The position numbers were made by a program, and so were the translations under genes. The notes under the pieces were generated by a model that was given only the letters and a program-made list of their open reading frames with translations, made no database searches and was not told where the DNA came from. DNA of 64,000 nucleotides from a virus. This document shows, in pieces, positions 6,822 through 61,236 of this stretch. The first letter of the stretch is position 1. Every line of letters begins with the position of its first letter. The DNA is taken from IMG/VR virus record IMGVR_UViG_3300017989_000002. One strand, 5' to 3'.

Positions 6822-8360
6822 TCACCCCATCGAAGCGAACGACGAGGGGAGAGCGATGACGTTGGGTGCGCCGCCGGCGCCGACCGAGCCTGTGCCCTTG
6901 ATCGGGATGCCAGTCATGAAGTCGACCGGGTGGGACAGCGTGGTGACCACGGCTCCCGCTGGGCCCGCAGGTCCCTGCACCACGGTCCCGGAGTTGTCCA
7001 CGGAGATCGTACCTCCCGGCGTCGTGATGGACGCCCCCGTGCTGTTGAGCTCCACGACCACGGTCCCGGCCACGCCCTCCATCTTGATCGTGCCGTCGAG
7101 CTTCATCGTCACCTTGGAGAGGAGGGACTCCACGGTGGGTCCGACGCCGAACATGATGTCGTCCAGGGAGGCCTGCAGCAGGAGCTTGCCCTGGGCGACC
7201 TTGTGAACCGACCCGAACTCGTCGCCGTTCATGTTGGAGACGACGACGGACATGGCCCCCGCCACGATGTCCTCACTGTTCTCCCCCACCGTGCGGCTCG
7301 CACTCCCCCCGATCGTGTCCTTGAGGGAGGCGCCCGTAGAACGCACCTGGTTGCCCGCGACCTTGCGCACGGAGTCGCCGCCGACGTCGACGAGCTGCTT
7401 CTCGCCCACGGTCAGGACGTGGTTCCCTCGGGCCTGCCTCACGAGGGTTCCGGCGGACACGGTGTCGGCCTGGCCTGTCGTGACGGTGCGGGTGCGCGTC
7501 ACCTCTCGACGGACGTCGCCGAACTTGTCGATGAGCTTGCCGCGCACGGTCCTCGAGAGCTGGGACGCGAAGGACTGGACGACAGGCCCCTCGAAGGCGT
7601 GCACCGCGCCGCCGTAGACGACGGACGAGACGTTCCCGGCCCGGTCCACCCAGACCTTCGCCCCGTTGTTGATGTTCAGGACGGCGATGATCGAGTCGGT
7701 CTTGCCGAAGGGGAGCTGCTTGGCGTCCTCCTCCTGGACCCGCCCGGCTCGGACCTTGATGATGGGCTCGTCCTCGCTGAACTCCTTGAAGTCCAGCTTG
7801 AACTCGACCGGCGTGCGGTCCTCACCGTGCCGGTCGTCTTCCCGCCTCGAGGTCCAGGACATAGAGCCGGACGCCGCGGACACGAACCAGTTCTCGAAGT
7901 AGTCCCGGATGGTGTTGCGGATGGGGACGTAGAGGCGCTTGGCGAACTGGGTGGCCCCGAACTCGAGGACCCCGCTGGCCCGGAGCACGGCAAACCCTCC
8001 CTGCGCGCTCGACGCCAGCATGTGATCGCCCTCGTTGAGGACAGGACGGTTCTGACGGAAGTCGTTGGGGTCTTCCTGCGCGTCCCCCTCGTCGAGCTGC
8101 CTTGGCGGCGTCTCGCAGGCGAAGATGAAGGGTGTCCGGGCAGTAGAGGGGAACAGCAGCCAGACGACCGTCCCCTGCTCCAGCGTCAAGAACGACCCGG
8201 CACCGTCCGAATTCACGAAGGCGGGCACGTACTTGATGCCACGGTGCATGCCTCCGAACTTGTCCAGGACGTCGTAGTTGTGCGCCAGGGTGTTGACCGC
8301 CTGGACTACGCCCTTCACGACCCGGACGGGACGCAACCTGCCGTCGGTGGGGCCTCTCAT
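6822..8360 (-). CDS. Gp5/VgrG/gpV-like baseplate central spike
   Basis: N-terminal OB-fold-like region (VVKGVVQAVN...GTVVWLLF) and C-terminal 8-residue beta-helix repeats (VGEKQLVD VGGDSVRK VAGNQVRS TGASLKDT IGGSASRT VGENSEDI). Confidence 0.8.
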   Translation of the reverse strand: MRGPTDGRLRPVRVVKGVVQAVNTLAHNYDVLDKFGGMHRGIKYVPAFVNSDGAGSFLTLEQGTVVWLLFPSTARTPFIFACETPPRQLDEGDAQEDPNDFRQNRPVLNEGDHMLASSAQGGFAVLRASGVLEFGATQFAKRLYVPIRNTIRDYFENWFVSAASGSMSWTSRREDDRHGEDRTPVEFKLDFKEFSEDEPIIKVRAGRVQEEDAKQLPFGKTDSIIAVLNINNGAKVWVDRAGNVSSVVYGGAVHAFEGPVVQSFASQLSRTVRGKLIDKFGDVRREVTRTRTVTTGQADTVSAGTLVRQARGNHVLTVGEKQLVDVGGDSVRKVAGNQVRSTGASLKDTIGGSASRTVGENSEDIVAGAMSVVVSNMNGDEFGSVHKVAQGKLLLQASLDDIMFGVGPTVESLLSKVTMKLDGTIKMEGVAGTVVVELNSTGASITTPGGTISVDNSGTVVQGPAGPAGAVVTTLSHPVDFMTGIPIKGTGSVGAGGAPNVIALPSSFASMG

Positions 8361-8965
8361 CAGCGACCCTTCTTGCGGCCGGGCCTGGTGGCGAGGGTCT
8401 TCGATGCCTCGTACGTGGCTGCATTGGTGGCTGCCTTGCCCACCGCCCCGGCGGCAGCCGCCAAGCCCGCGGCTCCGAGCGCCGCGCGACCCCTACGGGC
8501 GAGGACGCGCTTGACGCCGGGCGACGTCAGCGAGTCAGTCGCCGTCTCCGTGACCTTCTTCACCGTCGCGTCCGTGTTGGAGCTCCAGCCCTTCTCCTGC
8601 AATTCCTTCGCTGCCGCAATTCCTCCCTCGAGGGCGGAGTTGACCCCGGCCTTCCGCGCGGCGCCCTTCAGCGTGAGGTAGTCCTTGACCCCCTCCTGGA
8701 CCGCCTTCGCGGTCCCTCCCTTGCGCAGGAGAGAGATCTGCGGCGCCTTCCCTGTCACTGCACCTGTCGCAGCACCCAGGCCGGCACCGGCCGCGCCCGC
8801 CGCGCCGATGCCCTTGGAGTAGGCGAGTCCGCGATCGTCCTTCCCCGTCTTCTTGGCCCGAATCCCGTAGGAGCGGGCGTTGTCGCCCAGCTCCATGCCG
8901 ATGGCGACGGCGCACTTCTCCATCTCGTCGAGGAAGAACGGGACTGCGTCTTGCGGGATGAACAT
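8360..8965 (-). CDS. Basic Gly/Ala-rich putative internal virion protein with FFLDEMEKCA leader
   Basis: N-terminus MFIPQDAVPFFLDEMEKCA is nearly identical to that of 61240..61791; glycine zippers follow. Confidence 0.75.
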   Translation of the reverse strand: MFIPQDAVPFFLDEMEKCAVAIGMELGDNARSYGIRAKKTGKDDRGLAYSKGIGAAGAAGAGLGAATGAVTGKAPQISLLRKGGTAKAVQEGVKDYLTLKGAARKAGVNSALEGGIAAAKELQEKGWSSNTDATVKKVTETATDSLTSPGVKRVLARRGRAALGAAGLAAAAGAVGKAATNAATYEASKTLATRPGRKKGR

Positions 8966-8998: not shown

Positions 8999-11900
8999 TC
9001 AGTACTGGCCGCGCCAGTCCTTGACCTTGCCCTTGGTCTTGCCGAATTCGGAGCCCACCGCCAGCCCTGGGAGGGGATGGAAGCCGTGGATGTTGGACCG
9101 CCAGCCCTCGCGGAACGCCTGGGTCAGCGAAGACCCCAGGTCCTCGAAGTTGAGGCGGGCCAGCCAATCCTCCTTGAGCTCCTTCGGCAGCAGCTTGACA
9201 CCCTTCACCTGGGGCTCGTGAGCCACCGACTTCTTCCCTGCCCGGGCGGCCTTGCGGTTCCACGCGTTGACCTTGGTCACGGGGCGGATGTCGCCGGGCA
9301 CCCAGTCCGGGTGGTCTCCAGGGTCCTCGACGCGGGTGATGTCGGTCATGGCCTTGACCACGACCTCGATGTTGCGCCGCTTCACCGGGGCTGCCTTCTT
9401 GAGCACGCCCTGGATCTGGTCGGTCACGTAGTCCTGCATCTGGTGCAGGCCCCGTAGGTTCAGCACGTCTCGCGGGTTCTGGGGCCCCGTGGAGAGCGCG
9501 GTGCCGCGGGCCACACGCTGGCCCTTCTTCACCTTCAGGTCCTGCCCAGGAGGCACCCACAGCGTGGCGTCGCCCATGTAGACGTTGTGCCCGCCTCGGT
9601 CGGCCTTCTTCACGTCCTTCACCGTCCCCGACTGTGGGGCGAGCGGCGCCGTGAACGGCAGGTTCGTGTTGAGGGTGAGCAGCTCCTCGAGGCGCTTGAA
9701 GGTGCCCATCGAGTCGGAGCCGCGGCCCTTGGCCAGCCCGCCCTGGTGGAAGACGTTGAGGGACAGCTGGGTGCTGGGCTCTCCGACAGCCTGAGAGGCG
9801 ACGACGCCGAGGTTGTCTCCGATGTCGTAGGGACGCCCGTTCTCGGACAGGCCCATGCACTTCTTGCAGATCCCGTCCTCGGACTGGCACCTCGTCGGGG
9901 AGCGGACCTCGATCGCGCCCTTCCGGCCCTTCTTCGCGGCGGCCAGGAGGTGCGGCGTCACGACGGAGCCGCGGCGGTAGGTCTTGCCTCCGACGCGGAG
10001 GGGCTTGGCCAGGTAGCGGTCCAGGGCGTCGTGGTCGTCGACCGAGAGCTTCGTCCCGTCGCCCGTGCCGCAGTCGTCCTCCGTGACGAGCTGGTCCACG
10101 GTGCTGTTGATCATGAGGCGGGTCATGTAGCCTGGCATGGCCACGCCCTGCGTCTTCTGTAGGGTGCCCTTGCGCGCGCCGGCGAGCGTGACCCAGTACG
10201 CACTAGTGTCCAGGCCCTCCGAGTACGAGCTCGGCACCAGGAAGGGCACGACCTCGTCCTTGGCGTTCTTCACGAGCCCAGGCGTCGAGATGATCTGCTT
10301 GAGCTGCTCCGGCTTGCCTCGCGAGCCCGACGTCACCATCTGGTAGATGTTGGTCGGGTCCGCCTTCAGCTTCTGGGTCGTCAAGGCGTCGATGCGGTCG
10401 GTCGCCTTGTCCAAGATCGACAGGACCTCAGCGGACTTGCGCTTCCTGCCCTGCCGCAAGAGTGCGTCGACTTCCCGGTTCGACTCCCCGATGATCCGGT
10501 CCCGCTTGGCCTTGTTCACGACCCGGAAGTCGTCCAGGCCGATGGAGAAGGCCTCCTTGTACGAGTGCTCGTTCCCGAGCATCGTCAGGGCGTTGGTGAC
10601 CTTGCCGTAGTCCTGCTCGTGCTCCCGTCCGAGGCGGGACAGGAGTCCCTTCATCCTCTTGGCGTCGAGCACCGTCATGTCCTTGACCTTCCGCTTCCCC
10701 GTCTCGCGGTACTGCGCGGGGAGGACGGACTCGACGCGAAGGCGGCCCAGCGTCGTCTCCGCGCCACCGACGCGCACGATGTCGTCGAGGTTCAGGTTGC
10801 CCGTCCGGAACGCCTTCTCGGCCTCGGCCTGCGTCTTGAAGGTCTTCGAGGTCTTCTTCCCCGGCTTCGTCATCAGGTACAGGCCGAGCAGCGCCTCGTG
10901 CCCCGGGGTGTGCATGATCGCGCCGGTCGTCGGGCTGAAGAGGTTCTTCGAGGGGAACATCTTGGTGGCTTCGCGAGCCGCCTGGTCCGAGATGGGGACG
11001 TAGACCGACATGGCATCGCCGTCGAAGTCGGCGTTGAAGCCTCCCACGGCCAGGGGGTGCATCTCCAGCGCCGAGCCCTTCACGAGCCTGGGCCGGAACG
11101 CCTGGACGTTGAACTTGTGGAGGGCGGGGTCGCGCTTGAACAGGACCGGGCGCTGGCTCATCGCTCGCTCGAGGGCGTGGCGCGACCTGTCCGACTTCTT
11201 GGCGTACTCCTCCTCGGCGTCGAGGTAGCCCATGCCCTCCCGGACGAGCTCGCGCTCGGCGAAGGGCTGGTAGAGCGTCCACGCGATCTTCTCGGGGATT
11301 CCCAGCTCGTCGAGGTCCTGGCCGGGCTCCACCGTGATGGTCGACCGAGCACTGAAGTCCTGCCGCTTGCGCAGCATGTTCTTGCGGAAGAACCCCTCCT
11401 TCGAGCGGCCCCCGTCGCTGCCGTCGCTGCGCCGCACCTTGCCGGTGATGAGGTCGATGATGCCCTTGTAGCTGTCGTCCTGGCTCGACCGCGCGCGCCG
11501 ACTGATGTTGCCGCCGACGCCAGACAAGGCCTTCACCCCGTCGTAGACGCCCTTGCGGATGGGAGCCATGGACACGTAGTCCATGTGCACGTCCTTGAGC
11601 TTCTGGAGGCCCTCGGCCGTGAACGCGACGTCCTTGTACAGGAAGTTGAGGTCGTTGGTCATGAGCCGGCCGTCGGCCTGGGGCGTGACCGGGCGGAAGC
11701 GTGGCGGGAGGACCGGCACCGACCGCATCATGTAGACCGACGGGTCGAGGCCTCCCTCGTTGAGCGCGCGCACGATCCGGTAGCGCTTGTACGCCTTGTC
11801 CCGAGTCGCACCGGGCTTGAGGGACGACAGCCGCTCCTTGAGGCGCTTCTCCTCGGCCTTCACGTCGATGCCGGAGAGCATCTCCTCGATGGCTTCACCG

Positions 11901-14900
11901 CCGCGCTTGCCGTTGACCTGCGTCTCGCCGCTCACCAACTTGTTGAACTTGGCCTGGTTGATGCCCAGGAGCTTCTTGATGGCGTCCTCGAAGACCGGGT
12001 TCGGGATGGCCTCGGGAAGCTCGAACCGCGACCAGCGGTCGCCGTCGACGCCGCCGGTGATCTCGGGGTCGAACAGGCCGCCCCGGATCGGCTCCGCCGT
12101 GGTGGAGTGGAGCACGAGGCCTGGCTGTGGAAGCGCCTTGGGAGCCAGGGCCTTCACCTGGTCCTCGGTGAAGGGCATGAGCTGGAGGCTGTTGCCGTTG
12201 CGCCGCACGTTGACTCGCACGCCGTTGAGCATGCTGAGGAACTTCTCGTACACGAAGGGCGCCTTCGGGGGAGGCAGGGGCGTTCCTTCCCGAAGGGCGT
12301 CCCACAGAGCCGTGTTCCGCTCGCCCTTGTACGCCTGCATCTCGTGCAGGTTCTCCCGCGCGCCGTGCGCCAGGAGGGCGTAGGTGCCCAGCTCGCCCAG
12401 GGACTGCCCGCCGTGGGGAGCTCCGGAGCTGGGGGCGTGGTTGATGTCGTAGGGGGAGGTGCTGCCGCCCGATGCCGTGCGGCCCGACCCAGAGCCAGAG
12501 CGCGCGCTCACCTTCTTGTCGACCTGGTGGCGCAGCTTGTAGAAGTACTGCTGGCCGACGGCGGCGCGCTGGCGGAACGGCTTCTCCGTCTCAGGGTCGA
12601 ACAGGACCTCCTTGCCGTCCTCGGAGAACCCAGCGGCGCCAAGGTCCTTGGCCACCTGCGCCGTGTAGTCCGAGATCTCGGGATCGAAGTTCTTGACCTT
12701 GTAGACCTGACCCTTCCTGGCCGCGACCTTGCCCGCCGCCGTCTCCTGGACCTGACCGAGGTTGATGCGGCCTGGGATCCCCATCGGGTTCAAGGCGATG
12801 TCGAGGACCTTCTTCTCCCCGTCCTCTTCGACGTAGGGCATCTGAGAGTCGGTCATGATGCGGGTGATGACGCCCTTGTTGCCGTGACGCCCCACGAGCT
12901 TGTCGCCGACCTTGGCGGGCTCGGCCGTGCGGACGTGCACGACGACGCGCTCGACTCCTCGCTCCTTGAGCCGCTGAATGCGGACGACCTCGCCTTCGAC
13001 GTCCTTATCCCAGGTGATGGCACCGGAGACGAAGCGACGGGAGTTCCTCCGGCCTCGCTTCGGACGACCCGGGCGCGCGTCCGTGGGGTCGTGAAGCGCC
13101 AGCAGGAGAGGGTCCCCCTTCGACACACGTGCCCCGACCTTGACCACGCCGTCGTCCTGCACGTTCTCCAGCTGCCCCTTGTTGAACAGGGCTGGGTAGG
13201 AGTTGACGAACTTGCGCCGGTCGACCTGGGAGCTCTTGCCAAGGGTCGTCTCGGGCTTGTGGACGTGCTCGGAGGTGAGCTTGCCCGCCGCCGTCTCCGA
13301 GATGACGATGCCGTCCTCGAAGTTGTAGCCCTTGAGAGGCAGGTACCCGGTGCGGAGGTTGGTGCCGAGGGCCAGGACGCCATCGCGGGTGAAGGTGGTG
13401 TCGGCTACCACGTCCCCGGCCTTCACGGCGTCTCCTGCCTTGACCTTGACCTCCGAGTCGTAGAGCGAATTCGCCTTCGACCCGAAGTTGCGGAATAGGG
13501 CGACCTTGTGGCTCTTGCCTCCCGCGTCCTTGATGACCACGGCGTCCTTCTGGACCTGGGTCACGGTGCCGGCGACCGGGCTGGTTCGAGCCACTCGCTT
13601 GCCGAGCTCCTCCTCGAAGGTCTTGCCCGAGTCCGACAGTACCTGGACCAGAGGGGCTTCCCTGTGCTTGAGCGGCACCGCCTGCTCGGCCTGGCGGGAG
13701 GCCGTCATGGTGCGGTTGCCCTGGTCCGAGGACAGGAAGGGGATGAGGTTCGACGTGATGCCGAACATCTCCCGGGGAGAGGGCATGATGTAGTCGACGC
13801 TGCGAGGAGCGACGTCGGTGATCTCGCCGTCCTTCTGGACCAGGACGCGCTTCTTGCGCGCCACCCGCTTCCGGCCCGACTCCCGGTACTCGTCCGGGAA
13901 GGCCACGGACTTGCCTTGGAGCTGGGTCGGGTCGAGCCAGACCGTCTTGCCGGTCTTCGCGTCGATGAACCGGGACTCGAGCTTCCGCCCCTTCTTGCGC
14001 GTGCCCAGGGGGATGGAGAGCGTGATGCCCAAGCGGGGGCCCTCCGGCGTGTGCACGGGGTCGAGGAACCCGAGCTGGCTCGGGTCGATCATCTTCGCCT
14101 CGTCGGAGACGACGTGCTCCGACCGGATGCCTCCGTGAGGGCCCATGAGCGTCGTGCGGCGCGAGGCCGACAGCGCCTGCAGCGGGTTGATGAGCTCGGT
14201 CTGGTTCGCCAGGGAGGTCGAGAAGAAGCTGTTGAAGGGACGCTGCAGCGCCTCGCTGGGCATCATGGCCCGCACGCCGCCCTTCTCCTTCCGGGCCATC
14301 GCCGACTTCACCCGGCGCTGGATGGCCTTCTTGCTCTTCCGGAGCTGGTCACCGAACAGCTCCGGGGCTCCCGCGATGCGCTGGAACTCCATCGCCTCCT
14401 GGTTGTCCTCCGGGTCTCCCTTCACGATGCCGACCAGCTTCTTGGCACTCTGCAGCAGGACGTCGGGCGTGACCTCCTTGGCGTCCATGCCCAACGTCCG
14501 GCGCGTCGTCTCGGGGTAGAGCTCCGTCTCGGCCAGCTTCTCCTTGAGCACGGACTCCGTCTCGTCGACCTTCACCCCGAGCCACCGCGCCAGTCGAGCA
14601 CGGGACTTCTTGGGCTGGGACGCCTTGAGGCTCGAGGACCACACGCTCTCGGGCAGCACGGCCTTGATCTTCGAGTCGTCGGTTCCTGCCATGCGGAGGA
14701 AGTCCACGAGCGGGATCTTCGACGTCCCCCGCATGACCGCCACTTCCGACGTCGCGGGGTCGTACTGGACCTTCATCCGCCGGCCCGCGAACTGGCTGCG
14801 GTTCGCGAGGTTGAAGTCGGCTACCGCATCGCCGCTCTCGCGCATGCGGTGGTAGACACCGGACTTTCGCGTGAACAGGTTGGAGATGTGGTACTCGTTG

Positions 14901-15202
14901 CCGTTGTAGATGTACGAGCCCCTCTCGGTCATCCGAGGGAGGTCCATCACCTTGAGCCGGCGGCGCGACACGTCCTTGCCATTGCGCGACAGGACCACGT
15001 CGGCCTCGACAGGCACTGCCCACGTCTTCCCGTTGTCGATGGCGTCCGACTGGGCCGTCACGTCGTCGGGGTTCTTGGTGTCGCGGACCGCGACGTTCTC
15101 GAGGCGGATGCTGTCCCGGCCGTTCTCGACGGGGAACACCTCGGTCAGCGCCTCGGCGACCTCACGCTTCACGCTCTCGAAGCTGTCGACTGGGTTGGAC
15201 AC
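8999..15202 (-). CDS. rpoBC: Single-chain fused beta-beta' DNA-directed RNA polymerase
   Basis: Beta motifs GYNFEDG, GDKLVGRHGNKG, LNPMGIPGRINLGQ, YKLRHQVDKK and GGQSLGELG are followed in frame by beta' motifs GLFDPEITG, VPVLPPRFRP, KEGFFRKNMLRKRQDFSARSTI, NADFDGD (11015-11035), SGSRG, GARKG, RSPTRC..ICKKC and GEPSTQLSLNVFH. GTG start with AGGAGG. Confidence 0.97.
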   Translation of the reverse strand: MSNPVDSFESVKREVAEALTEVFPVENGRDSIRLENVAVRDTKNPDDVTAQSDAIDNGKTWAVPVEADVVLSRNGKDVSRRRLKVMDLPRMTERGSYIYNGNEYHISNLFTRKSGVYHRMRESGDAVADFNLANRSQFAGRRMKVQYDPATSEVAVMRGTSKIPLVDFLRMAGTDDSKIKAVLPESVWSSSLKASQPKKSRARLARWLGVKVDETESVLKEKLAETELYPETTRRTLGMDAKEVTPDVLLQSAKKLVGIVKGDPEDNQEAMEFQRIAGAPELFGDQLRKSKKAIQRRVKSAMARKEKGGVRAMMPSEALQRPFNSFFSTSLANQTELINPLQALSASRRTTLMGPHGGIRSEHVVSDEAKMIDPSQLGFLDPVHTPEGPRLGITLSIPLGTRKKGRKLESRFIDAKTGKTVWLDPTQLQGKSVAFPDEYRESGRKRVARKKRVLVQKDGEITDVAPRSVDYIMPSPREMFGITSNLIPFLSSDQGNRTMTASRQAEQAVPLKHREAPLVQVLSDSGKTFEEELGKRVARTSPVAGTVTQVQKDAVVIKDAGGKSHKVALFRNFGSKANSLYDSEVKVKAGDAVKAGDVVADTTFTRDGVLALGTNLRTGYLPLKGYNFEDGIVISETAAGKLTSEHVHKPETTLGKSSQVDRRKFVNSYPALFNKGQLENVQDDGVVKVGARVSKGDPLLLALHDPTDARPGRPKRGRRNSRRFVSGAITWDKDVEGEVVRIQRLKERGVERVVVHVRTAEPAKVGDKLVGRHGNKGVITRIMTDSQMPYVEEDGEKKVLDIALNPMGIPGRINLGQVQETAAGKVAARKGQVYKVKNFDPEISDYTAQVAKDLGAAGFSEDGKEVLFDPETEKPFRQRAAVGQQYFYKLRHQVDKKVSARSGSGSGRTASGGSTSPYDINHAPSSGAPHGGQSLGELGTYALLAHGARENLHEMQAYKGERNTALWDALREGTPLPPPKAPFVYEKFLSMLNGVRVNVRRNGNSLQLMPFTEDQVKALAPKALPQPGLVLHSTTAEPIRGGLFDPEITGGVDGDRWSRFELPEAIPNPVFEDAIKKLLGINQAKFNKLVSGETQVNGKRGGEAIEEMLSGIDVKAEEKRLKERLSSLKPGATRDKAYKRYRIVRALNEGGLDPSVYMMRSVPVLPPRFRPVTPQADGRLMTNDLNFLYKDVAFTAEGLQKLKDVHMDYVSMAPIRKGVYDGVKALSGVGGNISRRARSSQDDSYKGIIDLITGKVRRSDGSDGGRSKEGFFRKNMLRKRQDFSARSTITVEPGQDLDELGIPEKIAWTLYQPFAERELVREGMGYLDAEEEYAKKSDRSRHALERAMSQRPVLFKRDPALHKFNVQAFRPRLVKGSALEMHPLAVGGFNADFDGDAMSVYVPISDQAAREATKMFPSKNLFSPTTGAIMHTPGHEALLGLYLMTKPGKKTSKTFKTQAEAEKAFRTGNLNLDDIVRVGGAETTLGRLRVESVLPAQYRETGKRKVKDMTVLDAKRMKGLLSRLGREHEQDYGKVTNALTMLGNEHSYKEAFSIGLDDFRVVNKAKRDRIIGESNREVDALLRQGRKRKSAEVLSILDKATDRIDALTTQKLKADPTNIYQMVTSGSRGKPEQLKQIISTPGLVKNAKDEVVPFLVPSSYSEGLDTSAYWVTLAGARKGTLQKTQGVAMPGYMTRLMINSTVDQLVTEDDCGTGDGTKLSVDDHDALDRYLAKPLRVGGKTYRRGSVVTPHLLAAAKKGRKGAIEVRSPTRCQSEDGICKKCMGLSENGRPYDIGDNLGVVASQAVGEPSTQLSLNVFHQGGLAKGRGSDSMGTFKRLEELLTLNTNLPFTAPLAPQSGTVKDVKKADRGGHNVYMGDATLWVPPGQDLKVKKGQRVARGTALSTGPQNPRDVLNLRGLHQMQDYVTDQIQGVLKKAAPVKRRNIEVVVKAMTDITRVEDPGDHPDWVPGDIRPVTKVNAWNRKAARAGKKSVAHEPQVKGVKLLPKELKEDWLARLNFEDLGSSLTQAFREGWRSNIHGFHPLPGLAVGSEFGKTKGKVKDWRGQY

Positions 15203-15219
15203 TCATCCCCTCCTGGGCT

Positions 15220-15232
15220 TCTACCCTAGCGC
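15220..15232 (-). promoter_or_regulatory. Candidate -10 element GCGCTAGGGTAGA upstream of the RNAP gene
   Basis: 12/13 identical to GCGATAGGGTAGA at 56576-56588; both are followed by a CAGGAGGGG RBS. Confidence 0.55.
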
Positions 15233-15243
15233 GAGGAGGGCAC

Positions 15244-17151
15244 TCAGACCGCCCCAGCGCGACGTGGGGGCCTCTGGGAAGGCATCGGCCGCATGTCGAC
15301 GACAGCCCCGCCGCCGGACCCCTCTTGCCCTGAAGAGATCATGCCGTCGCCCACTCCCGGGAGATCCTCGTCGGTCGTGCCTTGGTGGGGCGCCTCTGGC
15401 GTGGGGTACGACGCCAAGACGTGGCGCACGCGGCGAGCCATCTCGGGCATCTTCTCGTTCATGCTGGCGAGCACCTGCTCTCGCTTCGCCGGATCGAGCT
15501 GGGCCAGGCGGTAGGCCCAGCCTTCGGCGAGGTCCAGCACGTTGACCTGCCGGTTCGACACGTCATCCTGCACGGGAGGCTCTGCGGCGGCCTGCGCTCG
15601 CGCCTGCTGCCGCATCTGGACCTCGGCCTGGACGTCGGCCTGGGCCTCGACCTGCATCTTCTGCATGGCCAGCTTCTGGCGGAGCTCGTGGCGGATCATC
15701 CGCTGCTCGTCGTCGTAGTCCTTGTCGAACTCGGTGAGCAGCGACTTCGCGCTCAGGTCGCCCATCGTCTTGAGCTGCATCAGCAGCTGCTTGGCCTGCA
15801 CGTCGTCCGCCATCCGGAACTGCTTCATGTGGACCTTGACGGGGCTCCACTTCATGAACATCGAGATGACGGGGATGACGAAGTGCTGCAGGAAGCGGTG
15901 CTGCATGTCCCGGTCGGCCAGGAACATGTTCTCCAGCATGCGGATCGACACGCTCGACCCCGACCAGGTGAGCCCTCCGAAGACGAACTCCTGGGGCACG
16001 TTCATCCCGACCAGGACGTGCTCCGACATCGCCCGGATCTCTTGCGTCAGCATGAGGGACTTGCCCGTGCCTCCGATGCGCTGGTGACCGAGAGGGAGGC
16101 TCATGACGGGCTTGTGGTTCGGGTCCTTGCGCCAGAAGGCGAGCTGCTGCTCGGTGTCCTTCTGCCACTGCCCCAGGTTGGTGTGGACGTAGGGGTCCGC
16201 GTTGGGGCTGGAGGAGGCCGGGAAGAACACGTCGAGGGGCAGCATGTGCTCGAGCAGCACGGCCTCGTTCGCCTTCTTCATGATCTGCAGGTGGTAGCTG
16301 TCCTTCATCGCAGCCAGGATGGGAGGCAGGCCCCAGCCCCGGGCCGACTTCGTGGACGGCGACGGCGCCGCGAAGTGGAACAGGTTGGCGTCCACCAGGC
16401 GGACGGACCTGTTGAGCCTCACCGCCTCGAGGAAGGCCTGCGGCATGTCCGCGATGAACCAGGGGTCCTTCTGACGGATCTTGGCCGCGACGTCGGCGGG
16501 GACCTTGTAGGTGTACCGCTTGTTGGTCGTCACGGGGTTGAAGTCGATGTCGACCTGCTCGGGCTCCCACCGGACGATGCGGATGTCCTTGTGGGAGCGA
16601 ATGGGCTTGTCGAAGGCGCGCGCGCGGCCCGTGTGCCCACAGGAGGGACAAGTCAGGTGGAAGCGGAAGCCCTTGAAGTCCCAGTCCTTCTTGAACTTCA
16701 GCCGCTTGACCCGGTGACTCTCCTTGCAGTGCGAACACTGCAGCATCTTGAGGAAGGGCAGGTAGATCGAGGCGAAGGCGTTGCCGTAGGTGTAGTAGTC
16801 GATGGCCAGCTCGACCTGGACCTTCTGGATGTTCAGCACCCGGTGGAGGAGGTCTTCCCACCGCTGGACGTGGCGGTCGAAGCCCTCCTCTTCGTTGGCG
16901 TCGACCTGGACCTTGGTGACGGGGTAGGCCGCCATCTTCCGGACGCCGGATGAGATGAGCGGGTTCGTCGTGGCGTGGTAGGCCAGGCGCTTGAACAGCT
17001 GCTTGATGTTCTTCGGCAGGTCCATCGAAGCGATGTCCCACCACGGGCTCGGGTACCGGCTGGACTGGTTGCGGTGGTCCAGCGAGCCGTGCTTGAACGA
17101 GCCTGTGAGAGGGGCACCGGAGGTCCCTGCGCTGGACGAGAAGCTACCCAT
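15244..17151 (-). CDS. Portal protein with Zn-ribbon insertion
   Basis: YYTYGNAFAS and WGLPPILAAM resemble the HK97-type portal GNA and G-x-S/P-P motifs. CSHC...CPSC insertion and a Gln-rich coiled-coil C-terminus. Confidence 0.7.
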   Translation of the reverse strand: MGSFSSSAGTSGAPLTGSFKHGSLDHRNQSSRYPSPWWDIASMDLPKNIKQLFKRLAYHATTNPLISSGVRKMAAYPVTKVQVDANEEEGFDRHVQRWEDLLHRVLNIQKVQVELAIDYYTYGNAFASIYLPFLKMLQCSHCKESHRVKRLKFKKDWDFKGFRFHLTCPSCGHTGRARAFDKPIRSHKDIRIVRWEPEQVDIDFNPVTTNKRYTYKVPADVAAKIRQKDPWFIADMPQAFLEAVRLNRSVRLVDANLFHFAAPSPSTKSARGWGLPPILAAMKDSYHLQIMKKANEAVLLEHMLPLDVFFPASSSPNADPYVHTNLGQWQKDTEQQLAFWRKDPNHKPVMSLPLGHQRIGGTGKSLMLTQEIRAMSEHVLVGMNVPQEFVFGGLTWSGSSVSIRMLENMFLADRDMQHRFLQHFVIPVISMFMKWSPVKVHMKQFRMADDVQAKQLLMQLKTMGDLSAKSLLTEFDKDYDDEQRMIRHELRQKLAMQKMQVEAQADVQAEVQMRQQARAQAAAEPPVQDDVSNRQVNVLDLAEGWAYRLAQLDPAKREQVLASMNEKMPEMARRVRHVLASYPTPEAPHQGTTDEDLPGVGDGMISSGQEGSGGGAVVDMRPMPSQRPPRRAGAV

Positions 17152-18906: not shown

Positions 18907-18935
18907 GAAGGAGGTGGGCACAATCGTCGCATAAG
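18907..18935 (+). promoter_or_regulatory. Candidate sigma28-like promoter of the replication operon (GAAG-N16-TCGCATAA)
   Basis: CGTCGCATAAG at 18925-18935 is identical to 56613-56623 and lies in the divergent intergenic region. Confidence 0.6.
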
Positions 18936-19352: not shown

Positions 19353-19756
19353 AGGTCTACCTCCGCAAGCTCCGCAAGGGCCGACCGCAGTGGGCCTCCA
19401 TCTTGCGCCGACGACGCGGGAAGCTCGGACTGTCCTTCGACGAGGTTGGAGCCCTCGTGGGACGTACCGGGAGAGCCATCCGAGGCTACGAATCCGCCTA
19501 CCGGACACCGGATGTCCCCACCTACCTGCACCTCCTGGACGTCCTGGGTATCCGCGGTCAGTGGAGGGCCGAGGCCTTGGTGGCGTTCGCTCGCGCACGT
19601 CTTGGTGGACTCGACGTGCACGTCAACTCCCGCTCACCCGAGACCTACATCCGGGCGAGCATCCACGCTGCCGGTCTGACCGGCCAAGCCGCAGAGGACG
19701 CAGTCTCTTCGGTGCTGGAACAGCTACCTCTCTGCGATAGGCGAGATCGACGATGA
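19349..19756 (+). CDS. XRE-family helix-turn-helix regulator
   Basis: GTGA-coupled start; LRRRRGKLGLSFDEVGALVGRTGRAIRGYESAYRTP. Confidence 0.8.
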   Translation: MKVYLRKLRKGRPQWASILRRRRGKLGLSFDEVGALVGRTGRAIRGYESAYRTPDVPTYLHLLDVLGIRGQWRAEALVAFARARLGGLDVHVNSRSPETYIRASIHAAGLTGQAAEDAVSSVLEQLPLCDRRDRR

Positions 19757-21138
19757 ACCGAAGCAAGAAGGCGGGCGTGGCCTACCGCGGGGCGAGCCTC
19801 TGGCTCCCCAAGAGCCACGTGGGAGAGGAGGCCGTGAAGGGCTCCCTCTCGTTCCAGACGAAGAAGAGCTCCTCGCTGTTCGAGGCGTTCACCGAGACGC
19901 AGCATCACCTGGTGGTGCCGCGGCACTACATCCCGGTCGAGGACCTGGACGAGCTCGGCTGCGAGATCGTCTTCGACGACCCGCCCGAGTTCTTCCGCAT
20001 CCCCGGGTGGGTGAAGCCCACTCACGAGCTGCGGCGAGGCCTCGAGTTCGGGGAGGGGAAGACCAACCAGGTCGCCATGTGGAAGGCCCTCGTCGAGGGC
20101 GGCGACGGCGTCGGAGTCCTGAAGTGCGGCGGAGGCAAGACCGTCATCGGCATCCACGCGGCCCTCAGCGTGGGGTACGCGGCGATGTTCGTGGCCCACA
20201 ACGGCTCCCTGCTGGGGCAGTGGAAGGAGCGGCTCCTCGAGCACACGAACATCGATGAGGAGCACATCGGGATGATCGGCGACGGCACCCTGGACTGGGA
20301 GGGGAAGCCGTTCTGCATCGCGTCCATCCAGACGCTGTGGCAGGCCATCGAGGCCGGGCGCTTGCCCGAAGAGCTGCGGTGGCACTTCGGGACCGTGGTC
20401 TACGACGAGGTCCACCACATGGCGGCCGAGAAGTTCAACCTCGCGGCGGACCTGTGCCACGGCGTGCGGTGGGGCCTGACCGCGACTCCCGACCGCACCG
20501 ATGGTCTGGAGGGCCTCTACTCGGCCCACATCGGCCCCCAGCTCTACCGGGACCTCGAGCAGGACCTGACGCCTGGCGTGTTCTTCGTCCGTACGGGGCA
20601 GGAGCTCACGGGCGATCAGGAGGACGCCTCCAAGGACAAGCGCGGCGAGTTCAACATCGGGAAGTTCCACACGGCACTTCTCCGCGACCCGGCCCGAGAT
20701 CGCGTCATCGAGAAGTACGTGAACCTCGCGCTCAGCGACGACCACGAGGTCATGGTCCTCACCCCGAGCCGTGACCACCTGACAGATCTGTCGCACAAGT
20801 GGAAGGGAGACAACGTCTCGGTCATCCACGCCGGCGTGAAGCAGAAGGACCGGCCCGAGCTCGTCGACAACTGCAAGCTCCTGCTCGCCATCGAGGAGCT
20901 CGGCATCGAGGGTCTCGACAAGCCGATGCTCTCCGTCGTGGTCATCTCGGTGGCCATGAAGAACCGCAACGCCCTGCAGCAGATCATGGGCCGCATCCAG
21001 CGCGCCGTGGAAGGGAAGCCCGACCCGGTGGTCATCATCATCTTCGACGACAAGATCAAGCGCTGCCGCCGCTGGGCTGCCCGGATGCAGGCTTCCTTCA
21101 CCAGCTGGAACATCCCCTTCCGCATCATCGACGCATGA
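19753..21138 (+). CDS. Superfamily 2 DExH helicase (UvsW/XPB-like)
   Basis: CGGGKT, YDEVHH, GLTATPDRTDG, QIMGRIQR. Confidence 0.9.
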   Translation: MNRSKKAGVAYRGASLWLPKSHVGEEAVKGSLSFQTKKSSSLFEAFTETQHHLVVPRHYIPVEDLDELGCEIVFDDPPEFFRIPGWVKPTHELRRGLEFGEGKTNQVAMWKALVEGGDGVGVLKCGGGKTVIGIHAALSVGYAAMFVAHNGSLLGQWKERLLEHTNIDEEHIGMIGDGTLDWEGKPFCIASIQTLWQAIEAGRLPEELRWHFGTVVYDEVHHMAAEKFNLAADLCHGVRWGLTATPDRTDGLEGLYSAHIGPQLYRDLEQDLTPGVFFVRTGQELTGDQEDASKDKRGEFNIGKFHTALLRDPARDRVIEKYVNLALSDDHEVMVLTPSRDHLTDLSHKWKGDNVSVIHAGVKQKDRPELVDNCKLLLAIEELGIEGLDKPMLSVVVISVAMKNRNALQQIMGRIQRAVEGKPDPVVIIIFDDKIKRCRRWAARMQASFTSWNIPFRIIDA

Positions 21139-21148
21139 GGAGGACCCC

Positions 21149-21874
21149 ATGAGGTCACCAGAAGACAAGAACCTGCTCCTCGGGAGGCTGCACGACGCCT
21201 ACCGAGACTGCGAGCGCTGCCCGCTGGCCCGGCCTACCGGGCGGCGGCGCATGAACGTCGTGCTGGGGGAAGGCAACCCCGGCGCGCGCGTCATGATCGT
21301 GGGCGAGAGCCCCGGCTACTACTCGGACACCACCGGGCGTCCGATGATCGACGAGGACGGTACGGCCATCATCAACCCGCTCCTGGAGGGCATCAACAGC
21401 AGCCGCGACGAGGTCTTCATCACCACGCTCGTCTCGTGCCGCCCCACTGCCGAGGACAGGCCCAACCTCGACCGCGCACCCACGAAGGAGGAGATCCGAC
21501 TCTGCCAGGCGCGGCTCCACTCCCTCATCGACATCGTGGACCCCTACGTCATCATCACGATGGGCCAGGCCGCGATGAAGACGCTCACCGGCTGCAAGCG
21601 GACGCTGCTGCAGGTCGCTCGCGACAAGACGCTGCCGATGCTCTGGGCTGAGACGCCCGGCCACTTCGTACCGGTGAAGCGGACCGCCTACGCCACCTTC
21701 CACCCCGGGTACCTGCTGAAGCAGTTCCGGGACATGGGCGAGGACCGCTTCTACGCGCCCGGCTCCGACATGCACCACACCTTCCTCACCTTCCACCGCG
21801 CGTTCTCGGTCGCCGACCAGCACGCGTTCATGAACTACGGCACCCCACACCCCGACCGCGGAGGCACTTCGTGA
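21149..21874 (+). CDS. Family-4 uracil-DNA-glycosylase-like Fe-S protein (altered pocket)
   Basis: CERCPL, GEGNP, IVGESPG, SCRP, RLC, FHPGYLL. Confidence 0.85.
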   Translation: MRSPEDKNLLLGRLHDAYRDCERCPLARPTGRRRMNVVLGEGNPGARVMIVGESPGYYSDTTGRPMIDEDGTAIINPLLEGINSSRDEVFITTLVSCRPTAEDRPNLDRAPTKEEIRLCQARLHSLIDIVDPYVIITMGQAAMKTLTGCKRTLLQVARDKTLPMLWAETPGHFVPVKRTAYATFHPGYLLKQFRDMGEDRFYAPGSDMHHTFLTFHRAFSVADQHAFMNYGTPHPDRGGTS

Positions 21875-22533: not shown

Positions 22534-22867
22534 GGAGACCGTCATCGCCGAGGCCGACCGGCGCGGGGGCCAGCAGCGCGACATGAAGACCCGTGCCCTG
22601 ATGCCCGACCCCGAGGGCGCGAAGCCCGGAGCCGCGCGCGTCACCATCTCCCGCAAGATCGGCTGGTCGTCCGGCTTCGGGCGCGAGAAGGCGGATGTGG
22701 TGGTGGCGGTGGAGGTTCCGTGTGGTACCTCCACCGAGGCCATCCACCGGGCCATGGACCGTGCCAGCGCGTTGGTCGATGAGCGGCTCCCCCAGGAGCT
22801 CGACGACATGATCAACAAGTACTTCGAGGGCGGCCCCATCACCTTCGGGAACGGAGGTGGTGGATGA
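22526..22867 (+). CDS. Hypothetical protein
   Basis: Overlapping coupled ORF. Confidence 0.65.
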   Translation: MSEETVIAEADRRGGQQRDMKTRALMPDPEGAKPGAARVTISRKIGWSSGFGREKADVVVAVEVPCGTSTEAIHRAMDRASALVDERLPQELDDMINKYFEGGPITFGNGGGG

Positions 22868-23160: not shown

Positions 23161-23176
23161 ACGCTCCGAGGCCCTC

Positions 23177-25644: not shown

Positions 25645-25645
25645 G

Positions 25646-26869: not shown

Positions 26870-26887
26870 CCCGCCTCCCTTCATCTC

Positions 26888-26916
26888 GGCGGCCGGGGAC
26901 ACTCTCCCCGGCCGCC
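26888..26916 (+). terminator. Perfect 12-bp hairpin (attenuator or mRNA stabiliser) after the putative SSB
   Basis: GGCGGCCGGGGA-cactc-TCCCCGGCCGCC; no U-tract. Confidence 0.6.
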
Positions 26917-30332: not shown

Positions 30333-30333
30333 C

Positions 30334-60245: not shown

Positions 60246-60451
60246 CAGGAGCTCAAGACCTCGTTGAGGAGGGCAGACGCATCATCTGCTGCTACCTCTA
60301 CCACGTCTGGAACGACCTGCTGGGTGCCCAGCTTGATGCGGCGCAGCGCGTCCGCATCGGCCTCCACCTCCGCGACCCGGGCCACGCGGTACTCCTCCAG
60401 GGCAGCGACGGTGTCCTGCATCTGCGCGGTGGTCTCGGGAGACAGCGGCAT
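60245..60451 (-). CDS. Small helical protein coupled to the sigma gene
   Basis: MPLSPETTAQ; TGATG overlaps on both sides. Confidence 0.6.
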   Translation of the reverse strand: MPLSPETTAQMQDTVAALEEYRVARVAEVEADADALRRIKLGTQQVVPDVVEVAADDASALLNEVLSS

Positions 60452-61236
60452 CACATCCCCCGGCGCTTCATGCGCTCGTCGATCTTGCCCTGGATGCTGT
60501 TCCGGATGCGCGACACCGTGGGCGCGCTCACGCCCATCTTCTTCGCCGTCTGCGTGCCGTTGAGCTGGGGGCGCCCGTACATGCCGTGCTGGTACTCGAA
60601 GACGGTGCGCTCCCGCGGAGAGAGGTCCTGGTAGATGTACCGCATGATCTCGCGCTGGGTTCCGGAGCGCATGTCCTCGAGCTTGTCCGGCTCGGTGGCC
60701 GCCAAGGACTCGATGTGGTCGGCCCGGTTCACGTCGATGCGCATCTTGTCCACGTGAGAGGGGGTCCACTGGTTGGTGGCTCGAAGCCTGCCGGCCTCCG
60801 CGAGGCTGGTGTTCATCCTCTCGGCGATGGTCTGCGTGTCGGGCTCGTGGCCGAGCTCCTCCTCGAGCCCGGAGACGACCTCTCGGAACAGGCCGATCTG
60901 CCTGCTGCGCCGGTAGGGGATGCGCCCGATGTTGGCGTGCTTCGACACGTCGGAGTGCACGCCCTGGAGGTACTTGTAGACCCACGACTTCAGCTGGGTG
61001 TTGTGTCCAGGCTTGTAGGTCTGCAGGCCCTTCATGGCGTGGTGGTGCGCCGCCGCCAGAACCGCGGGCTCCGGGACCGGGCTGGTGCTGTACTTCGACA
61101 CCCGCTGATGGATGAGAGGCCTGATCTGCTCCATGAGCGGGATCAGCTTCTCCTCCGTGGGATCTTCTTTCCACGCCTGCCAGAGCTCGAGGTCTCGCTG
61201 GGCCTGCTGGAGCTTCTCCTTGCGGGACCACGCCAT
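60451..61236 (-). CDS. Sigma-70 family group-3 (FliA/WhiG/SigF-like) sigma factor
   Basis: Region 2 (PLIHQRVSKY...KGLQTYKP..TQLKSWV), RIP motif, region 3 (LEEELGHEPDTQTIAERM), region 4 (LSPRERTVF..HGMYG...QTAKKMGVSAPTVSRI). Confidence 0.88.
   Translation of the reverse strand: MAWSRKEKLQQAQRDLELWQAWKEDPTEEKLIPLMEQIRPLIHQRVSKYSTSPVPEPAVLAAAHHHAMKGLQTYKPGHNTQLKSWVYKYLQGVHSDVSKHANIGRIPYRRSRQIGLFREVVSGLEEELGHEPDTQTIAERMNTSLAEAGRLRATNQWTPSHVDKMRIDVNRADHIESLAATEPDKLEDMRSGTQREIMRYIYQDLSPRERTVFEYQHGMYGRPQLNGTQTAKKMGVSAPTVSRIRNSIQGKIDERMKRRGM

What the first reader, a model, noticed from the sequence alone, without database searches (positions are those of the whole stretch)
8999..15202. Minimal fused beta-beta' polymerase (2067 aa) lacking the beta' N-terminal zinc finger
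Beta and beta' are joined by a very short linker (NGVRVNV-RRNG-NSLQLMPF, about 12191-12205). The total length is far below E. coli beta plus beta' (about 2750 aa). After GLFDPEITG the sequence runs GVDGDRWSRFELP with no CxC...CxxC, so the first beta' Zn-binding domain is deleted. NADFDGD, the second Zn site, the bridge helix and the trigger loop are kept. Cellular rpoBC fusions (Helicobacter, Wolbachia) are full length and sit in ribosomal-protein operons, unlike this one.
Basis: partly seen in the sequence, partly recalled or inferred. Interest (0 to 1): 0.85.

Follow-up and report, generated by a model that had tools for sequence, protein, structure and literature searches.

The report
Single-chain phage RNA polymerase, beta-beta' fused
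A roughly 175-kb tailed phage encodes both large subunits of a bacterial-type RNA polymerase as one slimmed 2067-residue protein beside its portal gene; hundreds of uncultured phages share this design, no paper I found describes it, and it probably works with a phage sigma factor and travels in the virus particle.

Summary
ORF 8999-15202 (minus strand) is one 2067-aa chain with a complete bacterial-type beta module followed by a beta' module. A length-invariant 21-residue junction joins them, and AlphaFold2 models it as a tight beta-hairpin. The beta' N-terminal zinc-binding domain is cleanly deleted: the protein has only four cysteines, and all four form the second Zn site.

The gene is not unique. 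At least 857 homologues exist, mostly 2030-2130 aa, on phage contigs of up to about 215 kb. The identical protein occurs in three independent assemblies, and dN/dS is 0.18 across the junction. Cultured relatives (Salmonella phage Arash, Vibrio phages D69/D148/D181) keep the beta-beta' junction and the portal-polymerase gene order. In Arash, the polymerase and a sigma factor were detected in virion preparations.

The window encodes the orthologous sigma. Four related phage records, three of them full phage records, have no recognisable alpha or omega gene. In a beta' tree the family lies outside a clade of 12 bacterial beta' sequences.

Most likely reading: an alpha/omega-less single-chain core that uses the phage sigma and is packaged for early transcription. 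The published mReC phage polymerases are all split, and I found no paper describing the fused form.

This scan has already found the same family on at least eight other genomes.

The parts
8999..15202 (-). Fused beta-beta' RNA polymerase gene (2067 aa plus stop); GTG start at 15202
   Evidence: GC3 0.93
12197..15202 (-). Beta module (residues 1 to about 1002). The protrusion, fork, flap wall and clamp part are kept, and so is the GDK...GRHGNKG barrel motif (residues 766-777). The N-terminal 40 aa, most of the lobe/SI1, SI2 and part of E. coli 1131-1210 are missing.
12173..12214 (-). Beta/beta' junction (residues 997-1010, VNVRRNGNSLQLMP). It is modelled as a beta-hairpin with an RNG turn.
   Evidence: 21-aa segment, no indel in 63 of 63; pLDDT above 90; dN/dS 0.18
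9002..12187 (-). Beta' module (residues 1006-2067)
12032..12055 (-). Site of the deleted beta' N-terminal zinc-binding domain (residues 1050-1057, GGVDGD|RW). E. coli 67-98 has no counterpart here.
11537..11647 (-). Beta' clamp helices (residues 1186-1222), the predicted docking site of sigma region 2
11015..11035 (-). NADFDGD catalytic Mg-binding motif (residues 1390-1396)
9857..10072 (-). Second beta' Zn site (C1711, C1772, C1779, C1782), the only cysteines in the protein
14141..14215 (-). Rifampicin cluster I equivalent (residues 330-354). E. coli D516, H526 and S531 are replaced by E336, A346 and T351.
   Evidence: the hot-spot positions come from established knowledge
13031..13087 (-). 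Flap-tip region (residues 706-724). It is an Arg/Pro-rich loop here, and no helix is predicted.
15203..15243 (-). The 41-nt portal-polymerase spacer, with GCGCTAGGGTA (15222-15232) and AGGAGG (15210-15215)
15244..17151 (-). Portal protein gene directly upstream (635 aa)
   Evidence: 28% identity to Arash portal gp204, E 5e-91
60451..61236 (-). Phage sigma-70-family factor (261 aa), orthologue of Arash gp10
6822..8965 (-). Two genes directly downstream: 201 aa of unknown function, and 512 aa with a weak gp5 C-terminal spike-like match

Best explanation
The gene encodes the catalytic core of the phage's own bacterial-type RNA polymerase as a single polypeptide. The beta C-terminal strand and the beta' N-terminal strand are joined by a tight turn, so no separate assembly of two subunits is needed. 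The lineage has no recognisable alpha or omega subunit.

The enzyme keeps both catalytic barrels, the bridge helix, the trigger loop, the lid, the clamp helices and the second Zn site. It has lost the beta' zinc-binding domain, most of the beta lobe and all lineage-specific inserts.

Promoter recognition most likely comes from the phage sigma-70-family factor at 60451-61236, docking on the clamp helices.

The gene lies in the virion-gene block directly after the portal gene, and the orthologous polymerase and sigma were detected in Arash virion preparations. The enzyme is therefore probably made late, packaged, and delivered with the DNA to transcribe early genes without host polymerase.

What is shown: the architecture, the family, the genomic context and the conservation. 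What is inferred, with my odds: catalytic activity (about 0.9), use of the phage sigma (about 0.7), and packaging with early transcription (about 0.55). The confidence given is for the whole chain of statements taken together.
For: - Domain order and motifs.
- AF2 models: pLDDT 88.4 and 84.7, matching solved bacterial beta' and beta at TM 0.75-0.79. The junction is modelled as a hairpin with pLDDT above 90.
- Family: at least 857 homologues, and 103 of the 120 listed are 2030-2130 aa.
- The junction is length-invariant in 63 of 63 relatives.
- dN/dS is 0.18 over the whole gene and at the junction, measured against an 81%-identical relative.
- The identical protein occurs in three assemblies.
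- The portal gene is upstream, and the portal-polymerase order is shared with Arash, D69 and D181.
- A baseplate wedge gene and the sigma gene lie in the same strand block.
- Arash virion mass spectrometry: gp206 gave the most spectra, and gp216 and sigma gp10 were also detected (PMC10585845).
- The window's sigma matches the SigB/F/G model end to end (E 8e-10) and Arash gp10 (E 2e-18).
- No alpha (PF01000, PF01193) or omega (PF01192) was found in four related phage records, while the controls hit in 14 of 14 genomes. Sigma region 2 was found in 4 of 4.
- Complex prediction for beta' 1006-1424 with sigma scored 0.77, against 0.00 for the best of 3 controls. That mark was reached by 58 of 80 solved complexes and by 2 of 110 mismatched pairs. 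The runs agree in at least 35% of their contacts, and the partner's pLDDT is at least 67. The interface is clamp helices 1186-1222 with sigma residues 26-72. Sigma-clamp-helix complexes have been solved, so this pass may only reflect likeness to them.
Against: - No experiment exists on this protein.
- The Arash preparation yielded 116 'virion' proteins, including ribonucleotide reductases. The authors themselves allow that abundant non-structural proteins were carried over, so packaging is not proven.
- The flap tip, which anchors sigma region 4 in bacteria, is an Arg/Pro-rich loop of low confidence here. The sigma could instead serve the host polymerase.
- Only 64 kb of the roughly 175-kb genome was available, so a divergent alpha-like or accessory subunit cannot be excluded for this phage.
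- Profile searches could also miss a very divergent alpha or omega in the relatives.
Confidence: 0.55

Rival explanations
1. The enzyme is a non-virion polymerase. Host RNA polymerase transcribes the early genes, and eventually this gene too. The single-chain enzyme then takes over middle and late transcription and is not injected. On this reading its detection in Arash particles is carry-over.
For: The Arash 'virion' list holds 116 proteins, including metabolic enzymes, and the authors mention carry-over. The window and its relatives show only one polymerase set, so that one enzyme must in any case serve the late genes. Other notes on this genome report host-type sigma-70 promoters at the tRNA cassettes (not tested here).
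Against: In this phage and in Arash, D69 and D181 the gene sits directly after the portal gene, inside the virion block. That is an odd place for an enzyme needed before late expression. Arash gp206 gave the highest spectral count of all proteins, and the sigma had 100% coverage.
Confidence: 0.3
2. The polymerase is sigma-independent or uses another phage factor, as phiKZ and AR9 enzymes do. The phage sigma instead redirects the host polymerase.
For: The flap-tip helix is not recognisable in this phage, and the beta' zinc-binding domain is gone. Many phages without a polymerase of their own encode sigma factors for the host enzyme (PMC7824862).
Against: Sigma genes are present in all four related phage records searched, each of which carries this polymerase. 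Both clamp helices are kept and are predicted to bind sigma region 2. Sigma and polymerase were found together in Arash particles.
Confidence: 0.15
3. The fusion is an artefact: a mis-assembly or sequencing error has hidden a stop or frameshift between two separate genes.
For: Read-level support could not be obtained. A few metagenomic relatives do show separate or fragmented beta and beta' genes.
Against: The identical 2067-aa protein occurs in three independent assemblies. Hundreds of relatives have the same length. The junction shows no indel in 63 of 63 sequences. Purifying selection extends across it. Cultured phages, sequenced as isolates, keep the same junction.
Confidence: 0.01
4. It is a cellular rpoBC fusion, either on a bacterial chromosome or recently captured from one.
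For: Helicobacter and Wolbachia have fused rpoBC genes, and the best-scoring NCBIfam model is the fused one.
Against: The score is 517 bits against a cut-off of 5372. Identity to bacterial beta and beta' is about 25-30%. The 12 bacterial beta' sequences form one clade (support 100) that excludes this family. The context is that of a phage: portal, baseplate and a replication module.
Confidence: 0.01

Closest known systems
Salmonella phage Arash gp206 + gp216 with sigma gp10 (OQ632216.1; PMC10585845)
   Same: Homologous along the whole length (32% identity over residues 2-1483). It has the same beta-beta' junction, the same portal-then-polymerase gene order and an orthologous sigma. It has no alpha or omega.
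   Different: In Arash the chain is cut after the catalytic barrel of beta', giving a 1525-aa beta-beta'N protein and a separate beta'C, with about 5 kb of other genes between them. Here it is one uninterrupted chain. The paper annotates the proteins as beta and beta' and does not comment on the fusion or on the missing zinc finger.
Vibrio phages D69, D148 and D181 (OZ195729.1, OZ196545.1, OZ196140.1)
   Same: They cover 99% of the query at 28% identity. In D69 and D181 the portal-like gene lies upstream and the beta-beta'N protein is fused.
   Different: They are split into beta-beta'N (1527 aa) plus beta'C (609 aa). D181 is further interrupted by a homing endonuclease. All of these genes are annotated as hypothetical proteins.
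mReC: multisubunit-RNAP-encoding Caudovirales (Weinheimer and Aylward 2020, PMC7481178)
   Same: These are tailed-phage contigs with bacterial-like beta and beta' that carry NADxDGD and branch outside the cellular enzymes. The subunits are similarly small (beta about 1000 aa, beta' about 900-1000 aa). Some split metagenomic beta' proteins fall next to or inside the fused clade in my tree.
   Different: Every mReC entry I read in the paper's table has beta and beta' as two proteins. The words fused and fusion are used there only for crAssphage. I could not compare sequences directly with the published contigs.
Cellular RpoBC fusions of Helicobacter and Wolbachia (NCBIfam NF007172, NF011417)
   Same: Beta and beta' form one polypeptide, joined C-terminus to N-terminus.
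   Different: The cellular fusions are about 2840-2890 aa and full length, and from general knowledge they carry the zinc-binding domain and sit in the ribosomal-protein/rpoBC operon. This protein scores at a tenth of their cut-offs, is about 800 aa shorter and lies in a phage virion block.
Virion RNA polymerases of phiKZ/AR9 jumbo phages and of N4 (functional analogues)
   Same: These are phage-encoded polymerases made late, packaged and injected to transcribe early genes. The phiKZ/AR9 enzymes are also two-barrel enzymes without alpha or omega (PMC7598289).
   Different: The phiKZ/AR9 enzymes are split into four or five polypeptides, are very divergent and use no sigma. The N4 enzyme is of the single-subunit T7 type. 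The protein here is one chain, aligns easily with bacterial beta and beta', and travels with a sigma-70-family factor.
crAss-like phage gp66 and YonO-type single-chain two-barrel polymerases
   Same: Both barrels lie in one polypeptide of a phage.
   Different: Those are so divergent that the standard beta and beta' profiles do not detect them (PMC7481178). This protein matches Pfam, NCBIfam and PDB beta and beta' along its full length.

Membership tests
Bacterial-type two-barrel RNAP catalytic core (beta + beta') | Beta' barrel with the NADFDGD Mg-binding motif | tested here: met
   Residues 1390-1396. The D-F-D-G-D columns are invariant in 63 relatives.
Bacterial-type two-barrel RNAP catalytic core (beta + beta') | Beta barrel with the conserved GDK...GRHGNKG lysines | tested here: met
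   Residues 766-777. G766, D767, K768, R772, N775 and K776 are invariant.
Bacterial-type two-barrel RNAP catalytic core (beta + beta') | Bridge helix, trigger loop, lid and clamp helices | tested here: met
   Alignment to E. coli beta'. The helices appear in the AF2 model, which matches solved beta' at TM 0.75-0.79.
Bacterial-type two-barrel RNAP catalytic core (beta + beta') | Beta' N-terminal zinc-binding domain (CxC...CxxC) | tested here: not met
   E. coli residues 67-98 have no counterpart. The region holds no cysteine in 63 of 63 relatives.
Bacterial-type two-barrel RNAP catalytic core (beta + beta') | Second beta' Zn site (four Cys) | tested here: met
   C1711, C1772, C1779 and C1782, invariant across the family.
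Bacterial-type two-barrel RNAP catalytic core (beta + beta') | Alpha dimer and omega as partner subunits | tested here: inconclusive
   None was found in four related phage records, while the controls hit in 14 of 14 genomes. No Pfam hit was found in the window. Only 64 kb of this roughly 175-kb genome could be searched.
Cellular RpoBC fusion (Helicobacter/Wolbachia type) | Score above the NCBIfam equivalog cut-off (NF007172, NF011417) | tested here: not met
   516.7 bits against 5372, and 478.1 against 4632.
Cellular RpoBC fusion (Helicobacter/Wolbachia type) | Location in the ribosomal-protein/rpoBC operon of a cellular genome | tested here: not met
   The portal gene is upstream and virion genes are downstream. 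A phage replication module lies in the same window.
mReC phage RNAP lineage (PMC7481178) | Tailed-phage contig encoding COG0085/COG0086-type beta and beta' with NADxDGD | tested here: met
mReC phage RNAP lineage (PMC7481178) | Branches outside cellular beta' | tested here: met
   The 12 bacterial beta' sequences form one clade (SH-aLRT 100). The fused family lies on the other side with split phage beta' (support 92). The tree is small and unrooted, with no archaeal or eukaryotic rows.
mReC phage RNAP lineage (PMC7481178) | Beta and beta' as two separate proteins, as in every entry I read in the paper's table | tested here: not met
   One chain here; the paper's table shows two proteins per entry.
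mReC phage RNAP lineage (PMC7481178) | Direct clustering with the published mReC sequences | not tested
Arash-like phage polymerase system | Homology over the full length, with the beta-beta' junction kept | tested here: met
Arash-like phage polymerase system | Portal gene directly upstream, and an orthologous sigma (gp10) | tested here: met
Arash-like phage polymerase system | Split into beta-beta'N and beta'C | tested here: not met
   The 2067-aa frame is uninterrupted here and in its closer relatives.
Arash-like phage polymerase system | Polymerase and sigma present in virions | not testable with these tools
   Known only for Arash, from mass spectrometry.
phiKZ/AR9-type jumbo-phage RNAPs | Beta and beta' each split into two or more polypeptides, with no sigma factor in the genome | tested here: not met
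   A single chain, with a sigma gene present; the family description is from PMC7598289 and PMC7824862.

The most novel reading that the evidence does not exclude
The single chain plus the 261-aa phage sigma form a complete, self-sufficient two-protein transcription system of the cellular type. It would need no alpha, no omega and no beta' zinc finger. It would be packaged into the capsid, injected, and resistant to rifampicin. That would make it the simplest known sigma-dependent multisubunit-type RNA polymerase and a natural orthogonal expression system.
Probability: 0.4. Interest if true: 0.75.

Novelty: new variant of a known kind. Interest (0 to 1): 0.55.

Why it matters
Bacterial RNA polymerase is normally assembled from five subunits on an alpha-dimer platform, and its beta' zinc-binding domain is treated as part of the conserved core. 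This phage lineage shows, in hundreds of independent genomes under purifying selection, that the two large subunits can be a single chain. That chain is about 680 residues shorter than E. coli beta plus beta', lacks the zinc domain, and has no recognisable alpha or omega partner, yet it keeps the sigma-docking clamp helices and a sigma factor.

If the enzyme is active with only its sigma, it would define the minimal sigma-dependent polymerase. It would also be an easy target for structural work and a compact orthogonal transcription module, probably insensitive to rifampicin. It further links the published split mReC phage polymerases to cultured phages (Arash and Vibrio D69/D148/D181) in which the biology can be tested.

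For this particular window the gain is modest, because it is one more member of a family that this scan has now met on many genomes.

Tried and rejected
I used three independent assemblies and family conservation instead.
- Whole genome: none is held for this window, so alpha and omega could be sought only in related phage records.
- Literature: searches for rpoBC + phage + fusion, for K13797, and for phage-encoded multisubunit RNAP + fused + sigma + virion returned nothing on this family. The jumbo-phage reviews and the marine jumbo-phage paper do not mention it. The 'moraphage' paper concerns phages without a polymerase.
- Neighbour annotation: Pfam and PHROGs gave no hit for most flanking genes.
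- Regular expressions for the junction and the zinc-finger site missed a third to a half of the relatives. I replaced them with column counts on the alignment.
- Motifs: my first pattern, GCGCAYAAG, was mis-specified and gave chance-level matches. TAGGGT and GCGNTAGNNT are not enriched in total count; only their positions before start codons are notable.
- Second sigma: the second sigma type of Arash and its relatives has no tblastn match in this window.
- Cobetia phage Carin-5 beta' sits on a very long branch (4.4) in the tree, so its placement is not interpretable.

Full report
**1. The observation.**
The window has 65-70% GC and dense, strand-blocked ORFs. Frame 8999-15202 on the minus strand is open for 2067 codons and has GC3 of 0.93. 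It starts at GTG 15202, with AGGAGG 6 nt upstream. An 81%-identical relative starts at the equivalent position.

Pfam places Rpb2_3 and Rpb2_6 in the first half and Rpb1_1 to Rpb1_5 in the second half. Sequence searches of solved structures align residues 13-999 with bacterial beta and residues 1095-2041 with bacterial beta'.

**2. Anatomy against E. coli, beta' module.**
MAFFT alignments with RpoB and RpoC of E. coli K-12 (fetched) give the following map. Domain names and E. coli numbering come from established knowledge of bacterial RNAP.
- The beta C-terminus (E. coli LGINIELE) corresponds to LNGVRVNV (992-999).
- Six residues (RRNGNS) follow, and then LQLMPFT corresponds to E. coli beta' 20-28. 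The first roughly 18 residues of beta' are therefore absent.
- E. coli beta' 67-98, the CxC...CxxC zinc-binding domain, is replaced by nothing between D1055 and R1056.
- E. coli 145-175 and two smaller stretches are missing, SI3 is absent and the jaw is reduced.
- The lid, both clamp helices, NADFDGD (1390-1396), the bridge helix, the trigger loop and the C-terminal conserved region are kept.
- The protein has only four cysteines (1711, 1772, 1779, 1782), exactly the second Zn site.

**3. Anatomy against E. coli, beta module.**
- The first 40 residues, most of the lobe/SI1 region (E. coli 225-420) and SI2 are missing, and E. coli 1131-1210 is shortened.
- At the rifampicin cluster I positions, E. 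coli D516, H526 and S531 are E336, A346 and T351. These are the classical resistance hot spots, so I infer that the enzyme is insensitive to rifampicin.
- The flap tip is an Arg/Pro-rich loop in this phage.

**4. Structure models.**
AlphaFold2 with a 63-row family alignment gave pLDDT 88.4 and pTM 0.87 for residues 880-2067, and pLDDT 84.7 and pTM 0.80 for residues 1-1010. Foldseek matches them to solved bacterial beta' (TM 0.75-0.79) and beta (TM 0.74-0.77).

The junction is modelled with pLDDT above 90 as two antiparallel strands (997-1002 and 1005-1010) joined by the RNG turn. The fusion therefore closes a hairpin between the last strand of beta and the first strand of beta'.

The lobe region is a small helical bundle (165-260). 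The flap tip (710-720) is disordered in the model, with no helix.

**5. Real and conserved.**
A word-indexed search found 857 homologues, and 103 of the 120 listed are 2030-2130 aa. They sit on contigs of up to about 215 kb, and one is named 'uncultured Caudovirales phage'. The longer members carry intein or LAGLIDADG domains.

In a 63-sequence alignment spanning 38-83% identity:
- the 21-residue junction segment has no indel in any row;
- the zinc-finger-equivalent segment has no cysteine in any row;
- the four Zn2 cysteines are invariant.

Of 104 non-intein members, 89 have exactly four cysteines.

The identical protein is encoded in three independent assemblies: ERZ27256770 (174,625 bp), SRR6963479 and SRR14699969. 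Against the 81%-identical gene of another assembly there is no indel, and dN/dS is 0.18 over both the whole gene and codons 980-1030. An artefact is excluded for practical purposes, although raw reads could not be examined.

**6. Context.**
The window is phage DNA.
- The gene upstream (15244-17151) is 28% identical to the portal protein of Salmonella phage Arash, E 5e-91.
- Downstream lie small and spike-like genes.
- The plus-strand block 19753-33337 holds an SF2 helicase, UDG, a DnaB-like ATPase, a primase, PolA, RecA and a PD-(D/E)XK nuclease.
- The minus-strand block from 36447 holds a baseplate-wedge gene and large ORFans.

**7. Cultured relatives.**
tblastn against phage genomes finds Vibrio phages D181, D148 and D69 (99% coverage) and Arash. 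In Arash and D69 the portal gene lies just upstream, and the polymerase is a 1525-1527-aa beta-beta'N protein plus a separate beta'C of about 606-609 aa (the Arash beta'C length is taken from another scan report). D181 is further interrupted next to a homing endonuclease.

The Arash paper (PMC10585845) reports gp206 as the protein with the most spectra in virion mass spectrometry. gp216 and the sigma gp10 were detected too. It also lists 116 'virion' proteins in all and concedes possible carry-over.

**8. Partner subunits.**
ORF 60451-61236 matches the SigB/SigF/SigG model end to end (E 8e-10, below the curated cut-off). It also matches phage sigma PHROGs and solved sigma factors, and it is homologous to Arash gp10 (E 2e-18).

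In Arash, D69, D181 and a 133-kb IMG/VR relative, profile searches find sigma region 2 in 4 of 4. They find no alpha (PF01000, PF01193) and no omega (PF01192), while the same searches hit in all 14 control genomes.

A complex prediction of beta' 1006-1424 with the sigma scored 0.77, against 0.00 for the best of 3 controls. That mark was reached by 58 of 80 solved complexes and by 2 of 110 mismatched pairs. The runs agree in at least 35% of their contacts, and the partner's pLDDT is at least 67. The interface is clamp helices 1186-1222 against sigma residues 26-72 and 99-103. Sigma-clamp-helix complexes are textbook structures, so this pass may come from likeness. It shows that the docking surface is still sigma-like, not that this pair binds.

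**9. Place among polymerases.**
NCBIfam scores are far below every equivalog cut-off, including the Helicobacter-type fused model (517 against 5372).

A maximum-likelihood tree of 38 beta' sequences (945 columns, LG+G4, SH-aLRT) puts the 12 bacterial sequences in one clade (support 100). Rhizobium phage RHph_Y65 and Vibrio phage Va2 are their sisters. The fused family lies on the other side (support 92), together with Vibrio phage D69 and several separate metagenomic beta' proteins. The window's protein pairs with its 81% relative.

Loci of two of those separate beta' proteins show beta and beta' as adjacent or fragmented genes. Fusion and splitting have therefore both occurred within the clade, unless some of these are assembly damage.

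The zinc-binding domain is absent from all members of this clade, split or fused, and from Cobetia phage Carin-5, whose placement in the tree is not interpretable. It is present in RHph_Y65, Va2 and E. coli. Its loss is therefore a clade trait, independent of the fusion.

**10. Literature.**
Weinheimer and Aylward (PMC7481178) described multisubunit-RNAP-encoding Caudovirales (mReC). In the part of their table that I read, every entry has beta and beta' as different proteins, with beta about 900-1560 aa and beta' about 900-1390 aa. 'Fused' refers only to crAssphage. Reviews of jumbo-phage polymerases do not mention a fused bacterial-like enzyme. I found no paper describing the single-chain, zinc-finger-less form, but the library does not hold all journals.

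**11. Mechanism.**
- Shown: a conserved, selected, single-chain core with all catalytic elements; a co-inherited sigma; no detectable alpha or omega in relatives; and a position in the virion block after the portal gene.
- Inferred: the hairpin junction replaces the alpha-dependent assembly of beta with beta'.
- Inferred: the sigma supplies promoter recognition through the clamp helices. The region-4 contact is altered, because the flap tip is remodelled.
- Inferred: the enzyme is made late, packaged and injected to start early transcription, as in N4 and phiKZ.
- The main rival is a non-packaged middle/late enzyme.

**12. Verdict.**
The gene is one member of a large phage family with cultured representatives, and this scan has already met the family on at least eight other genomes, with follow-up reports on most of them reaching the same closest relatives. 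I rate it a new variant of a known kind: phage-encoded bacterial-type polymerase, here fused and zinc-finger-less. Its interest is moderate and lies mainly in what the family offers for experiments.

Noticed in passing
window 15222-15232, 49195-49205, 56578-56588 (all minus strand); also upstream of 58129: A GCGnTAGnnTA box (GCGCTAGGGTA, GCGGTAGCCTA, GCGATAGGGTA; TAGTAT before 58129) lies 21-27 nt before the start codons of minus-strand genes that follow an intergenic gap, just ahead of AGGAGG. One of these genes is the polymerase gene. The total count is not above chance (5 against 3.4 expected); only the placement is striking. It is a candidate late promoter -10 element.
   Followed up: partly
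window 18927-18935, 20791-20799, 25165-25173, 56615-56623 (all plus strand): TCGCAYAAG occurs four times, always on the plus strand, against 0.49 expected (0 of 100 shuffles reach 4). One copy lies 27 nt before the HTH gene at 18962. Two copies lie inside the helicase and primase genes.
   Followed up: partly
window 19753-33337 (+): A compact replication and recombination module: SF2 helicase, uracil-DNA glycosylase family protein, DnaB-like ATPase, DnaG-type primase, family A DNA polymerase with a 3'-5' exonuclease domain, RecA, and a PD-(D/E)XK nuclease.
   Followed up: no
window 41599-45561 (-) and 52659-56558 (-): Two giant ORFs (1320 and 1299 aa) in the virion block have no Pfam or PHROG match at all. 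Gene 49406-52006 between them is a gp6-like baseplate wedge protein and resembles Arash structural protein gp13.
   Followed up: partly
relatives P0111, P0035, P0080, P0082, P0084; L004 (Vibrio phage D181) 4791-5408: Many family members carry inteins or LAGLIDADG/HNH homing endonucleases inside the polymerase gene. In P0111 the insert sits inside the catalytic beta motif, between GDKL and RHGNKG.
   Followed up: partly
supplement of PMC7481178: Several published mReC contigs (for example 3300002053_SMTZ23_10000005 and 3300017987_Ga0180431_10000006) encode two different beta/beta' sets on one contig: about 1365+1005 aa and about 1000+900 aa. This resembles the virion and non-virion pairs of jumbo phages.
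   Followed up: no
L012 (Cobetia phage Carin-5) 2541-9366: A cultured marine phage has sigma, beta (1083 aa) and beta' (927 aa, no zinc finger, four Cys) as three adjacent genes. This is a split counterpart of the system described here, though it sits on a very long branch in the tree.
   Followed up: partly
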